A DNA stretch of 64,000 bases from the human T2T-CHM13v2.0 reference genome, Homo sapiens: NCBI RefSeq assembly GCF_009914755.1, contig NC_060936.1; one strand, 5' to 3'. The notes below the pieces were generated by a model, which was not told the DNA's origin, ran no database searches, and saw only the letters and a program-made list of their open reading frames with translations. Made by a program: the position numbers and the translations under genes. Below, in pieces: positions 1 to 55,320 of the stretch. Position 1 is the stretch's first letter, and every line of letters starts with the position of its first letter.

Positions 1-444
1 AGCGACAATTTCCCTATATTACGCTCCATTTTTCATTTGTTACTTGTTCAGATAATGAAATGAATATAAAAAGAGTGCCATGTTTTAATGCTTCATAGCT
101 TACAAAGTTATTTCAGAGATCTCATCTCACTTGTTCCTCAGAATAGCTTGGTGAGAATGAACAAATTAAACTACTTTGTAGCTCGCCAACGTCTCTTATT
201 TTATGAGATACATATGCTCTTACATTGTTCTATGCCTTTTGTACACCTAGCTCTCAAAATGAAATGTCTTAACCCCTCTGCCATATGAAATGCTCCTTAG
301 CAACCTTAAAGACTCAGCTAAAAAGTTATGTTTTATACAAAAGCCTTTTACTGCCTAATTTACTAGGCAGTAAATTAGGAAAACTCTCACCTTGGTCTTG
401 ACCCAATCCTGTATCACAACACTTAACAATTAAAAACAACAACC

Positions 445-28468: not shown

Positions 28469-28596
28469 CGCTTCAAAGCAAGATTAGACTCTCCTCCGTG
28501 ACCTGAGTCATTACCAGCATCATGAACAGCTTCATAATGTTTGAAAAGTTCATCAGCAGATCCAAGAGATTTCATACACTGGGGACATATGAAACC
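28469..28596 (-). CDS. EEA1: EEA1 coding exon 3, Rab5-binding C2H2 zinc finger (GFICPQCMKSLGSADELFKHYEAVHDAGNDSGHGGESNLALKR)
   Basis: ttctatag| acceptor, CG|gtacgg donor; 128 nt, phase 0/2; translation matches EEA1. Confidence 0.97.
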
Positions 28597-29319
28597 CTAT
28601 AGAAAGGGGCAGAAAAAAGTTTCAAAATAGTATTTAATATCGTGAAATAACAATTTGCATATTATTAAATATCACCAAATGTCTGAATCATACCAATGGT
28701 GCCATTAGGTAAATTTTATCTTATGGTATTAATCCCAAATTCTAGTATCATGCAAAGATACTTCATTGTCTATTCTAGTTGAAGTTTACAAAATACAAAG
28801 AAAGCCCTTGCAACCATCTTTTATTTTTAGGTCAGATAAATTAATAGCTGGAGTACCCAAGTCTAATCTGAAAAGTTAGTTCTAATATAGATTAGTTGAG
28901 AAGATTTGCCATCATATCCTTCCTTTCTCTAGCTATCCTCATTAGTAAAATAATATCTGTTCCAATCTACTTCATAGGAATGCTATGAAAAAAAAAAAAA
29001 GAAGATGAACCACTGAGGGGGAAAAAAAGTAATTCATAATCACCACAGAGTTTGGATATCTACAATGATAACAAGTTTTCTAGTCAGTAAATGTCCTTGC
29101 TAACCTACGGCTAACACAGTAAAGGCCTAAAATTAATGTGTAGCCCCATAAAATATAAAAAACAAACATAACTACATAACTAATCTCAAAATTATTATAT
29201 GGTTAAAACTACCAACTAGAGTACTATGTTAAAGATGCTGATAAAGATCCATGTTTTACAAATTTTAGGTTGCAATTCATTAATGAATTATGAAATCAAC
29301 TTACTGGGTTGCAACTTTT

Positions 29320-33498: not shown

Positions 33499-34289
33499 CT
33501 AACCAGATTTTCAAGAATCTTTTATGCCTCCAGCTTTGCTTGCACTGCTTCAGCCAGTTTAACTGGTATCATCCTACATGCACCCATTTTCTCCACCACA
33601 GTTAAAATCTCTGGTTTAACTGTCCTCCTATAAAGTTTTTCCTGAGTTCCTCTTATGCTGAATTAGCCACTGCACTTTTTGCAAATAATACCTATCATAG
33701 AAACCTCCTGGGGTAGAGATTGTACCTTATTCACCTATTATCTCCCTCACCTGCCAAAATATCTGCCACATAAAAGGTACTCCATTAATGTGTCAAATAA
33801 CTAAATGTTGTTAAGAATCCTTTCTTATATACATAATTACCTCATAGAAAAAAGTAATTTTTGGTCTTTCTGGTGCAAAAGGTTGCATTATTTTATAAGA
33901 TTTATAAAATATTTTTTAAAAGCTATGTTTCCTTTGTTTTTGGAATACCATAGTGATTTTCAAAGAAAACACATTATCAGGATCATCTGAGAAATTCTTT
34001 TCAGCCTGAAAATGGGCAGCGCTTCCCCTAACTTGCTCCCCTCCTCAGCCTTTGTTACGTGCAGCCTCAGATACTGGGAAATACTGAGAAATATTTTCGG
34101 ACTGATCCACTGTTACTTATGAGAGTATGTCATTCTGTCACCTTCCTCAAGTCTAGGGGTGTTAAAACAAAAATTGAGACAGTCTGAGATTCAAGTTCTA
34201 ACGCTGTATATTTTCCTGAATAGGGACAATAACTGTTTATATGCAAAGTCTTTTTCCTTTTTTTTTTTTGGCGGTGGTGGGGCAGGGAC

Positions 34290-34604
34290 GGGACAGAGTC
34301 TCACTCTGTTGCCCAGGCTGGAGTGCACAGGCATGATCTCGGCTCACTACAACCCCTGCCTCCCATGTTCAAGCGATTCTTGTGCCTCAGCCTTCCCTGT
34401 AGCTAGAATTACAGGCACATGCCACCACACCCAGCTAGTTTTTGTATTTTTAGTAGAGACAGGGTTTCACCATGTTGGCCAGGCTGGTCTCAAACTCCTG
34501 ACCTCAGTGGTCAGGCTGGTCTCAAACTCCTGACCTCAAGTGATCTGCCCACCTCAGCCTCCCAAAGTGCTAGGATTACAGGCGTGAGCCACAGTGCCCA
34601 GCCT
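34290..34604 (-). mobile_element. Alu (AluS) with internal ~32-bp duplication
   Basis: Reverse Alu; CAGGCTGGTCTCAAACTCCTGACCTCA occurs twice. Confidence 0.88.
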
Positions 34605-35003
34605 CAAAGTCCTTTTTCTAAGTAAGAGCAAAGTATTTTATACTAAAGCATTTTAATACATCCATTAATGAAACATTAACAAAATAATAAAAATATAACT
34701 TACCAATGTTGGAATAATATTCACTTAATATTTTGATTTCATGGCAAAATTGATACAAAATATTAACTTAAATTTCTGTATTTATTTACAAATTCACAAA
34801 AAGACAGCTGCAAACAGGAAGAGAAACCACGCAGACTTCCCAAGAGCCTCTTTTCCTTATTGAAACTTCCTTTAAGCATGCATAATTAAAGCAATCCATA
34901 TTCCCTTGTAGCATAAAAAGTTAAGCAACACCGAGGCAAGGAAAAACCAGCTATTTTGAGCAACCCAAAACCAAGCTGCTAAAACAAAATATACAGGACC
35001 CAC

Positions 35004-35129
35004 AGTAACACTGGAGTCATTAAGAAGTTCCTGTCCTCTTGTTTCATTTTCATCGTGCACTTTCTGGTAATGCTCCAATAAATCAATAGCAGTTATACAT
35101 CTTTTCATACATAAGGGGCAGATGAAACC
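35004..35129 (-). CDS. EEA1: Putative alternative (cassette) EEA1 exon encoding a duplicated C2H2 zinc finger GFICPLCMKRCITAIDLLEHYQKVHDENETRGQELLNDSSVT
   Basis: tatttcacag|GGTTTC acceptor at the same codon position as exon 3; ACT|gtgggt donor; 126 nt, phase 0/0, no stop; C-x2-C-x12-H-x4-H; 15 of the first 26 aa identical to the exon 3 finger. Confidence 0.7.
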
Positions 35130-35328
35130 CTGTGAAATAACAACTTTTAGAAAAATATACAGAAAAATATTTTTATAAAACAAGACAATGCAAATAGAAA
35201 TAACAAGAAAATAACTAGTGTATCTCTTCTGGTATACGTAAGGAAAATTTTCAAGTGGTAACTGTACAAAAGGTGAAAATCTATCCAAAGTAGGACTTCT
35301 AAAATTAGTTCCCATCCTTATGCTATAA

Positions 35329-35943
<615 letters not shown>

Positions 35944-55227: not shown

Positions 55228-55320
55228 CTCTGAAGAGCTTTCATTATTGACGTCCACTGTGTTTATAGGAGTTGCTGATGAATCTAAATCAGAACCTTGA
55301 GAGCCAACTCTCCCAGGAGT
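55228..55320 (-). CDS. EEA1: EEA1 coding exon 2 (TPGRVGSQGSDLDSSATPINTVDVNNESSSE, aa ~9-39)
   Basis: Manual translation matches the EEA1 N-terminus; ttccag| acceptor and GAG|gtatga donor; 93 nt, phase 0/0. Confidence 0.97.

What the first reader, a model, noticed from the sequence alone, without database searches (positions are those of the whole stretch)
35004..35129. Cryptic duplicated zinc-finger exon: candidate tandem double-C2H2 EEA1 isoform
Seen: 6.4 kb upstream (in transcript order) of exon 3 lies a paralogous exon. It starts at the identical acceptor position (cacag|GGTTTC vs tatag|GGTTTC) and reads GFICPLCMKRCITAIDLLEHYQKVHD vs exon 3 GFICPQCMKSLGSADELFKHYEAVHD. Spacing C-x2-C-x12-H-x4-H is the same and 15/26 residues are identical. 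Conserved residues often use different synonymous codons (ATC/ATA, TGC/TGT, TTA/CTT, TAC/TAT, GTG/GTT, CAC/CAT), the pattern expected from an old duplication under purifying selection. A donor ACT|gtgggt gives exactly 126 nt, phase 0/0. It therefore fits in frame between exon 2 (ends phase 0) and exon 3 (starts phase 0) and adds 42 aa. It cannot replace exon 3 (phase 0/2): joining it to exon 4 reads AGA TGA. Established: the EEA1 N-terminal C2H2 finger binds Rab5-GTP (and Rab22) via the E39/F41/I42/P44/M47 surface, and this drives endosome tethering; the canonical protein has only one such finger. Inference: inclusion gives two tandem fingers. The new one inherits E39 and keeps F, I, P and M, while the old one is preceded by DSSVT instead of SSSE. 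This could change Rab avidity, Rab specificity or tether mechanics. It may exist among predicted (XM-type) transcripts, but I know of no functional description.
Basis: partly seen in the sequence, partly recalled or inferred. Interest (0 to 1): 0.9.

Follow-up and report, generated by a model that had tools for sequence, protein, structure and literature searches.

The report
Conserved second zinc-finger exon of EEA1
Human EEA1, the standard early-endosome tether, has an intact, already annotated but unstudied optional exon that would place a second Rab5-type zinc finger in front of the known one, and this exon is conserved from skates to humans.

Summary
Window 35004-35129 (-) is a 126-nt open exon with AG and GT borders. 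It encodes a C-x2-C-x12-H-x4-H finger that shares 15/26 residues with EEA1 exon 3, six of them through different synonymous codons.

It is not cryptic. The annotation supplied with the finding already lists it as an exon of another RefSeq EEA1 transcript.

It is old and still coding:
- Open orthologues were found in 15 further mammal-like genomic ORFs.
- One RNA-like mammalian contig joins exon 2 to it (P0010).
- One bird-like spliced sequence carries both fingers in frame (P0019).
- NCBI models of a skate and a bichir carry both fingers.
- All vertebrate copies form one clade, support 99/98.
- EEA1-like proteins of a coral, a snail, an annelid and four unnamed records also have two N-terminal fingers.

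The model folds like the Rab5-bound EEA1 finger of PDB 3MJH. It keeps the residues matching F41 and I42, whose mutation impairs Rab5 binding (PMC10397212).

Use of the donor in human RNA, tissue pattern and Rab binding were not testable here. Nine literature searches found no description of the isoform.

Verdict: a real, conserved, frame-preserving cassette exon of unknown function; moderately interesting.

The parts
35004..35129 (-). Alternative cassette exon of EEA1. It is 126 nt, phase 0/0, and encodes a second EEA1-type C2H2 finger (residues 1-26) plus a 16-residue linker.
   Evidence: Sequence and translation. Paralogy to exon 3. Orthologues. Fold. The hub table lists it as an exon of another RefSeq transcript.
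35130..35152 (-). Acceptor region. The pyrimidine tract is 10/18 Py, the weakest (tied with exon 9) of the 10 exons compared. It ends in cacag. It holds the 12-mer (35132-35143) that recurs only once in the window, before exon 3.
   Evidence: The in-frame reading LKVVISQ of this stretch is kept in 8 of the 9 genomic rows that cover it; P0013 differs.
34998..35003 (-). Donor GTGGGT after ACT. It matches the MAG|GTRAGT consensus at 6/9 positions and has no G at -1.
   Evidence: Its in-frame reading V-G is invariant in all 11 sequences and is also present in P0029, P0032 and P0045.
34781..35003 (-). Conserved intron block after the exon. The first 54 nt are about as conserved as the exon. After that the reading frame is lost between species. 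The block ends at an AATAAA (34781-34786) 218 nt after the donor.
   Evidence: One search finds no unusual RNA fold.
28469..28596 (-). Canonical exon 3, the paralogue, which encodes the known Rab5-binding finger.
55228..55320 (-). Exon 2. It ends in phase 0 with ...SSSE and is the upstream splice partner of the new exon.
   Evidence: The junction is seen in P0010 and P0019.
28642..28653 (-). Second and only other copy of the 12-mer found before the new exon's acceptor. It lies 46-57 nt upstream of exon 3.
   Evidence: 2 matches in the window, 0.02 expected, 0 of 100 shuffles with 2.

Best explanation
Window 35004-35129 (-) is a genuine, evolutionarily maintained, frame-preserving alternative cassette exon of EEA1. 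It is an old tandem duplicate of the finger exon (exon 3).

When spliced between exons 2 and 3 it adds 42 residues. These form a second EEA1-type C2H2 finger and a flexible linker, placed in front of the known Rab5-binding finger. Each chain of the EEA1 dimer would then carry two fingers like beads on a string.

What is shown: the exon structure, its age, its coding conservation, its fold, and the existence of tandem-finger sequences in other vertebrates and in invertebrate EEA1-like proteins.

What is inferred: the extra finger binds a GTP-bound Rab, most likely Rab5 because the F-I-C-P...M face is kept. This would raise avidity or change the capture geometry of the tether. Its weak, conserved splice sites and conserved flanking intron would make inclusion regulated and usually low.
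For: Anatomy:
- AG and GT borders, 126 nt, no stop, in frame with exon 2 and exon 3.
- It cannot replace exon 3.

Paralogy:
- 15/26 identical residues, with synonymous sites saturated (pS 0.75, pN 0.28).
- BLASTP E 1e-12.

Conservation:
- All 11 hits are 79-100% identical open copies.
- adds more distant copies (P0017, P0022-26, P0029, P0032, P0035, P0045).
- G, F, I, C, P, C, L, H, H are invariant in 11 of 11 vertebrate copies compared.
- None of the 15 mammal-like genomic ORFs compared with the human ORF shows a frame shift inside residues 8-42 of the exon. The frame is lost in the intron just after the donor in 4 of them (P0013, P0023, P0024, P0025).
- The spacing between the two fingers is 41, 43 and 43 residues in the spliced models of bird-like P0019, skate and bichir. 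It would be 42 in human (exon length).

Splicing elsewhere:
- P0010 joins exon 1, exon 2 and this exon.
- P0019 joins exon 2, this exon and exon 3 in frame.
- NCBI isoforms of Rhinoraja longicauda (P0057, P0060) and Polypterus senegalus (P0059) carry both fingers. That is 3 of the 33 hits; 29 have one finger and 1 has none.

One origin: the vertebrate copies form one clade, support 99/98.

Design recurs: 7 of the 11 new hits have two N-terminal fingers, and 5 of these 7 carry a FYVE domain.

Fold:
- AlphaFold gives a beta-beta-alpha finger, pLDDT 91-93 over residues 1-20.
- The best PDB matches are 3mjh_D and 3mjh_B, rmsd 0.6-0.8 A over 25-27 columns.
- P0019 models as two fingers joined by a low-confidence linker, pTM 0.29.

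Function lead: F41A/I42A in the known finger impairs Rab5 binding (PMC10397212, passages read). Both residues are kept in the new finger.

Annotation: the hub table lists the exon in another RefSeq transcript.
Against: - No human RNA or peptide evidence could be examined here.
- In mammals the donor was not seen in use. The one RNA-like mammalian contig (P0010) reads 15 codons into the intron.
- No mammalian protein with both fingers was among the 11 candidates. This is weak evidence, because the database is clustered at 90% identity.
- Within mammals the exon peptide is no better conserved than the first 54 nt of the intron (430/525 against 181/259 in-frame identities). In P0017 it is less conserved (25/35 against 16/18). 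So part of the mammalian conservation may be non-coding.
- The new finger evolves faster than the canonical one: human against skate 13/25 versus 19/25.
- Four positions have no residue in common between the two finger clades. These include a charge reversal at the position of K58, so Rab5 binding cannot be assumed.
- The hits are subject to ascertainment: only open copies can be found by a protein search.
- dN/dS among orthologues could not be computed, because no orthologous DNA was available.
Confidence: 0.78

Rival explanations
1. In mammals the exon acts mainly as a composite terminal or otherwise unproductive exon. Exon 2 is spliced to it, the weak donor is not used, and the transcript reads into the conserved intron and ends at the AATAAA 218 nt downstream. 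The product would be a short mRNA encoding the N-terminus, the extra finger and a non-conserved tail. That product could be a free Rab-binding fragment or just a way to lower EEA1 output. This rival can coexist with the best explanation.
For: - P0010 is spliced at exon 2 and the new exon but continues 15 codons past the donor.
- The donor lacks G at -1.
- The conserved block reaches the AATAAA at 34781-34786.
- The read-through frame stays open for 42 more codons in human.
Against: - A single contig may be a pre-mRNA or an assembly mix.
- The read-through frame is not conserved: it shifts or stops at different places.
- Use of the poly(A) site was not tested.
- The donor's V-G reading is invariant, which argues that the donor is used.
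- The bird-like, skate and bichir sequences use it.
- The hub coordinates end the exon exactly at the donor.
Confidence: 0.15
2. In mammals the block is conserved chiefly as a non-coding element, such as a splicing regulator or an enhancer in intron 2. The finger reading frame would then be a relic that is carried along and rarely or never translated.
For: - The first 54 intronic nt are as conserved as the exon.
- A 12-mer is shared with the intron before exon 3.
- YGCY motifs occur 6 times against 2.24 expected in the 200 nt after the exon (22 of 2000 shuffles reach this). This was a post hoc test.
- No human expression data were examined.
Against: - A relic would not keep all four zinc ligands, the GFICP face and an open frame from skate to human.
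- No frame shifts occur in the exon, but they do occur directly after it.
- Synonymous sites between the paralogues are saturated while pN is 0.28.
- Spliced tandem sequences exist.
Confidence: 0.05
3. It is a dead duplicated pseudo-exon, or a chance open frame.
Against: as set out under the best explanation, plus the RefSeq listing in the hub table.
Confidence: 0.02

Closest known systems
N-terminal C2H2 finger of human EEA1 (exon 3; PDB 3MJH, complex with Rab5A)
   Same: - Same ligand spacing.
- Same start GFICPxCMK, including the residues matching F41, I42, P44 and M47.
- Same exon start and phase.
- It is the best sequence hit and the best fold hit.
   Different: - 10 of the 25 finger residues differ in human.
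- Four positions share no residue between the two clades: the positions of L/H50, D/E54, K/R58 and A/V/L62.
- It evolves faster.
- It is optional rather than constitutive.
- Its Rab binding is untested.
Two-finger N-termini of invertebrate EEA1-like proteins (Pocillopora damicornis P0086, Bradybaena similaris P0081, Ridgeia piscesae P0088 and unnamed records)
   Same: - Two GF[IL]CPxC fingers 35-40 residues apart after a short basic N-terminus.
- These are followed by a coiled coil and, in the full-length records, a C-terminal FYVE domain.
   Different: - Whether finger 1 there is optional is unknown.
- The tree groups both vertebrate fingers together (96/84), which favours a separate vertebrate duplication.
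- Orthology by position is not rejected (AU p 0.089).
- Only 25 columns were available.
N-terminal C2H2 finger of Rabenosyn-5 (the gene name is recalled, not shown by a call)
   Same: A GFLCPLC finger directly after the start codon, on chr3. It is the best match to P0010 in the genome outside the new exon and exon 2 (E 0.49; ORF).
   Different: It is a different gene with a single finger, and the similarity is weak. PMC7036122 (passages) lists a C2H2 finger among Rabenosyn-5 domains.
EEA1 poison cassette exon of Kovalak et al. 2021 (PMC8091538)
   Same: It is also an unannotated, conserved alternative splicing event in EEA1.
   Different: - It is not this exon.
- The three EEA1 events in supplementary file 1 lie at hg38 92799087-92826165.
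- Their 3' splice-site 15-mer maps to G000:C12:92798710, about 15 kb outside the window.
- The present exon preserves the frame, so it is not a poison exon.

Membership tests
EEA1-type Rab-binding C2H2 zinc finger | Zinc ligands with spacing C-x2-C-x12-H-x4-H | tested here: met
   The ligands are invariant in 11 of 11 vertebrate copies.
EEA1-type Rab-binding C2H2 zinc finger | Beta-beta-alpha fold that superposes on the solved EEA1 finger | tested here: met
   - pLDDT 91-93 over residues 1-20.
- the top hits are 3mjh_D and 3mjh_B, rmsd 0.6-0.8 A, probability 0.99.
- The E-values of 0.15-0.18 are not significant for so short a domain.
EEA1-type Rab-binding C2H2 zinc finger | Residues matching F41 and I42, whose mutation impairs Rab5 binding, are present | tested here: met
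The role of F41A/I42A comes from PMC10397212 (passages).
EEA1-type Rab-binding C2H2 zinc finger | Binds GTP-bound Rab5 | not testable with these tools
   No Rab5 sequence could be obtained for a complex prediction. This needs a bench assay.
Frame-preserving alternative cassette exon | AG and GT borders, length a multiple of 3, no stop, in frame with both neighbouring exons | tested here: met
Frame-preserving alternative cassette exon | Both junctions present in RNA of this species | not testable with these tools
   No human RNA data were available; only the hub's RefSeq listing. In other species, the exon 2 junction is seen in P0010 and both junctions in P0019.
Frame-preserving alternative cassette exon | Orthologous exon and splice sites conserved | tested here: met
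   This rests on protein-level reading only, because no orthologous DNA was available.
Poison (NMD) cassette exon | Inclusion introduces a stop or shifts the frame | tested here: not met
   126 nt with no stop.
Mutually exclusive exon pair with exon 3 | Either exon alone keeps the frame | tested here: not met
   The exons are 126 and 128 nt. Exon 4 read in phase 0 starts R*.

The most novel reading that the evidence does not exclude
The double finger is the ancestral metazoan form of the EEA1 N-terminus, and the textbook single-finger mammalian protein is a derived splice form. The retained first finger has fixed differences from the canonical one, namely an acidic residue in place of K/R58, a non-acidic residue in place of D/E54, and an aromatic or Cys residue in place of L/H50. 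It would therefore recognise a different partner, or the same Rab in a different way. The tandem isoform would then be a tether with altered capture or collapse behaviour, used in particular tissues.
Probability: 0.25. Interest if true: 0.75.

Novelty: new variant of a known kind. Interest (0 to 1): 0.55.

Why it matters
EEA1 is the standard early-endosome marker and the model long coiled-coil tether. Its mechanism has been worked out on the single-finger form: Rab5 binding at the N-terminal finger, followed by collapse of the coil.

An optional second finger has been kept for the whole history of jawed vertebrates and is mirrored by two-finger proteins in corals, molluscs and annelids. This suggests that part of the tether's biology has not been examined. 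Open questions include four rather than two Rab sites per dimer, a site 42 residues further from the coil, and a possibly different specificity.

The isoform is cheap to test with junction counts, isoform-specific knock-out, and ITC on the three finger constructs.

The exon itself is already in RefSeq. What is new is the evolutionary depth and the lack of any functional study, not the discovery of the sequence.

Tried and rejected
- **Kovalak 2021 poison exon.** It is a different place in the gene.
- **Retrocopy.** I looked for a processed EEA1 copy carrying the exon 2 to new exon junction. A whole-genome search with P0010 gave only exon 2, the new exon, exon 3 and one chr3 finger.
- **RNA gene or RNA structure as the reason for intron conservation.** Rfam gives only Alu-type hits on either side, at 34288-34602 and 35494-35942. 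The fold z-score is 0.33.
- **Orthology of the new finger with invertebrate finger 1.** The free tree does not support it. The constrained tree is 17.35 log-likelihood units worse, AU p 0.089, so it is not rejected. Only 25 columns were available, and several long branches were flagged by the program.
- **dN/dS among orthologues.** This was not possible. The hits are proteins only, and no collection with vertebrate DNA was open.
- **Primary structure paper for the Rab5 contact list (PMC2890723).** It is not held.
- **Literature.** Nine searches found no description of an EEA1 isoform, exon or second C2H2 finger. One search found 0 papers for six phrases such as 'EEA1 isoforms' and 'EEA1 splicing'. 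One search found 3 papers that hold the phrase 'endosome antigen 1 isoform'; I saw only the search listing.
- **Limits of the literature search.** Subscription journals and most supplementary tables were not searchable. Exon-level tables of splicing atlases may well list this exon.
- **Not used.** Complex prediction and the protein-atlas search.

Full report
**1. The observation**

- On the minus strand, window 35004-35129 follows ...gttgttatttcacag and is followed by gtgggt.
- It is 126 nt long and reads without a stop as the 42 residues kept as P0001.
- Canonical exon 3 (28469-28596, 128 nt) starts with the same GGTTTC after tatag.
- Exon 2 (55228-55320, 93 nt) ends ...SSSE in phase 0.
- Exon 4 read in phase 0 begins R*. 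So the new exon can only be added before exon 3. It cannot replace it.

A codon-by-codon comparison gives these figures.
- Nucleotide identity is 49/78, with the third position least conserved (13/26).
- pS is 0.75, which is saturated, and pN is 0.28.
- BLASTP of the two peptides gives E 1e-12.

The exon lies between two Alu-type repeats and is not repeat-derived itself (hub mask list).

The word 'cryptic' does not hold. The RefSeq table handed over with the finding lists 35004-35129 as an exon of another EEA1 transcript.

**2. What it encodes**
- Among all solved structures, the closest sequence to P0001 is the EEA1 finger crystallised with Rab5A (3mjh_B, E 6.2e-6).
- Pfam gives only sub-threshold C2H2 matches for both the new and the canonical exon, as expected for single fingers.
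- AlphaFold2 on an alignment of 17 sequences gives a beta-hairpin plus helix, with pLDDT 91-93 over residues 1-20 and a poorly defined tail.
- Foldseek ranks 3mjh_D and 3mjh_B first: rmsd 0.6-0.8 A over 25-27 columns, probability 0.99. The E-values of 0.15-0.18 are not significant for so small a domain.
- In canonical numbering the exon would supply G40-F41-I42-C43-P44...M47 again.
- F41A/I42A is the mutant used as Rab5-binding-deficient EEA1 (PMC10397212, passages read).

**3. Relatives elsewhere**

A word-indexed search of 5.8 billion proteins with P0001 returned 11 candidates. All 11 were hits, 79-100% identical.
- Ten are prokaryote-style ORF calls across orthologous genomic DNA. They read through the acceptor and the donor.
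- The eleventh, P0010, is different. It reads exon 1, exon 2 and the new exon in one frame, then continues 15 codons into the intron. This is RNA-like evidence that the acceptor is used in a non-human mammal. It also shows that the donor was not used in that molecule.

The exhaustive HMMER search added more distant genomic copies and P0019.
- P0019 is a 123-residue sequence in which exon 1, exon 2, the new finger and the canonical finger follow each other in frame.
- Its canonical part closely resembles bird EEA1 models.

A search with P0019 among longer proteins gave 33 hits.
- By a ligand-pattern count, 3 carry two N-terminal fingers, 29 carry one, and 1 starts inside the finger.
- The three with two fingers are Rhinoraja longicauda isoforms X3 and X6 and Polypterus senegalus isoform X2.
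- So the exon predates the split of cartilaginous and bony fishes, and NCBI's pipelines already model tandem-finger isoforms.

**4. Evidence that it is coding, and where that evidence is thin**
- Across 11 vertebrate copies, G, F, I, C, P, C, L, H and H are invariant.
- The distance between the two fingers is 41 residues in the bird-like sequence and 43 in skate and bichir. It would be 42 in human, so length changes kept the frame.
- Among the 15 mammal-like genomic ORFs compared with the human one, none has lost frame within residues 8-42 of the exon. Four lose it within a few codons after the donor (P0013, P0023, P0024, P0025), and most lose it later: 67/284 identities in codons 19-42 after the donor.
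- The human read-through frame itself is shifted relative to other mammals in the stretch after QNS, and it regains register later. This is the behaviour of conserved non-coding DNA.

Against a simple coding story:
- The first 54 intronic nt are nearly as conserved as the exon (181/259 against 430/525). In P0017 they are more conserved (16/18 against 25/35).
- Protein searches can only find open copies, so the sample is biased.
- I had no orthologous DNA, so no dN/dS or PhyloCSF test was possible.

The deep conservation from skate to human is the strongest argument for translation. For mammals alone the case is good but not closed.

**5. Splice sites and surroundings**
- Compared with the nine constitutive exons in the window, the donor ACT|GTGGGT matches the consensus at 6/9 positions. 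The range for the others is 5-8. It lacks G at -1.
- The acceptor has the poorest pyrimidine tract, 10/18, tied with exon 9.
- Both sites are conserved. The in-frame readings SQ before the exon and VG after it are invariant or nearly so.
- Weak but conserved sites with conserved flanks are the usual signature of a regulated exon (general knowledge, not tested here).
- The conserved block runs at least to an AATAAA at 34781-34786, 218 nt after the donor.
- YGCY motifs are mildly enriched in the 200 nt after the exon: 6 against 2.24, with 22 of 2000 shuffles reaching 6. This was a post hoc test.
- The RNA has no unusual predicted stability (z 0.33).
- A 12-mer ending 2 nt before the acceptor AG occurs only once more in the 64 kb, 46-57 nt upstream of exon 3 (0.02 expected). 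I cannot explain this.

**6. Origin**

A profile of four two-finger N-termini found 31 proteins. Of the 11 new ones:
- Seven have two N-terminal fingers: Bradybaena similaris, Pocillopora damicornis, Ridgeia piscesae and four unnamed records. Five of these seven carry a FYVE domain.
- One (Pomacea canaliculata) has a second finger-like stretch without the last His in the model.
- One is an unrelated three-finger protein.
- Two are single-finger teleost models.

So a two-finger N-terminus is common in EEA1-like proteins outside vertebrates.

A tree was built from 37 fingers over only 25 columns. Long branches were flagged and the bootstrap had not settled.
- It puts all vertebrate copies of the new finger in one clade (99/98).
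- It puts both vertebrate fingers together against the invertebrate ones (96/84). This favours a duplication on the vertebrate stem.
- Forcing all first-position fingers together costs 17.35 log-likelihood units (AU p 0.089). The ancestral-double-finger reading is therefore disfavoured but not rejected.

**7. How it most likely works**

Shown:
- The exon is a conserved, in-frame, optional exon that encodes an EEA1-type finger and a linker.
- In P0019 the two fingers model as independent units joined by a low-confidence linker (pTM 0.29).

Inferred:
- In the parallel EEA1 dimer the tandem form would present four fingers instead of two. The extra pair would sit 42 residues further from the coiled coil.
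- Because the F-I-C-P...M face is intact, binding of Rab5-GTP is the most likely activity. I put this at about 45%.
- It would raise avidity for Rab5-positive vesicles, or change how binding is passed to the coil.

Reasons for caution:
- The new finger evolves faster than the canonical one: human against skate 13/25 versus 19/25.
- It differs at four positions with no shared residue between the clades. These include an acidic residue where the canonical finger has K/R58. A changed partner is therefore possible.

A non-exclusive rival is that mammals often use the exon without its donor. That would produce a truncated transcript ending at the downstream AATAAA (P0010; confidence 0.15).

**8. 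What is known**
- Nine full-text searches found no paper that describes an EEA1 isoform, an alternative EEA1 exon or a second C2H2 finger. One search returned 0 papers for six phrases.
- The one published unannotated EEA1 splicing event is the conserved alternative 3' splice site and poison cassette exon of PMC8091538 (section 9 and supplementary file 1 read). It lies outside this window.
- Subscription papers and most supplementary tables were not searchable. Splicing atlases may list the exon.

**9. Verdict**
- The exon is already in RefSeq, so it is not a discovery of sequence.
- Its age, the recurrence of the two-finger design, and the absence of any functional work on a much-used protein make it a worthwhile, moderately interesting lead (interest 0.55).

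Noticed in passing
window 35132-35143 (-) and 28642-28653 (-): An identical 12-mer sits just before the new exon's acceptor and 46-57 nt before exon 3's acceptor. These are the only two copies in the window (0.02 expected). This is unexpected for introns of a duplication older than jawed vertebrates.
   Followed up: partly
window 34781-35003 (-): The intron after the exon is conserved among mammal-like sequences for at least about 220 nt, and the first 54 nt are as conserved as the exon. The block ends at an AATAAA. YGCY motifs are mildly enriched.
   Followed up: partly
L002 (G000:C3:15098250-15098650), ORF 22-324 (-): An ORF starts with a Met followed by a GFLCPLC C2H2 finger. In the genome it is the best match to P0010 outside the new exon and exon 2, and it scores above EEA1's own exon 3 (E 0.49 against 1.72). 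I recall it as the N-terminus of Rabenosyn-5, but no call named it.
   Followed up: partly
P0015 (3179 aa, unnamed record): This protein has 38 matched stretches to the new finger, spaced every 83 residues where listed (E 8.9e-87). The repeat is a near-identical CPLC...H finger. Several other unnamed proteins carry 3-9 such fingers (P0016, P0018, P0021, P0034).
   Followed up: no
G000:C12 about 92776700-92803800, outside the window: PMC8091538 supplementary file 1 lists an unannotated 41-nt EEA1 cassette exon and a conserved alternative 3' splice site further down the gene (hg38 92799087-92826165). The offset to this assembly is about -22.4 kb.
   Followed up: partly
window 35004-35129 codons 37-39 and 28469-28596 codons 29-31: Both exon tails contain the same N-D-S (AAT GAC TCN), offset by 8 codons. 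It may be a remnant of homology in the linker, or it may be chance.
   Followed up: no
window 34288-34602 and 35494-35942: Alu-type repeats bracket the conserved block. They appear as sub-threshold Metazoa_SRP and mir-1268-like Rfam matches.
   Followed up: no
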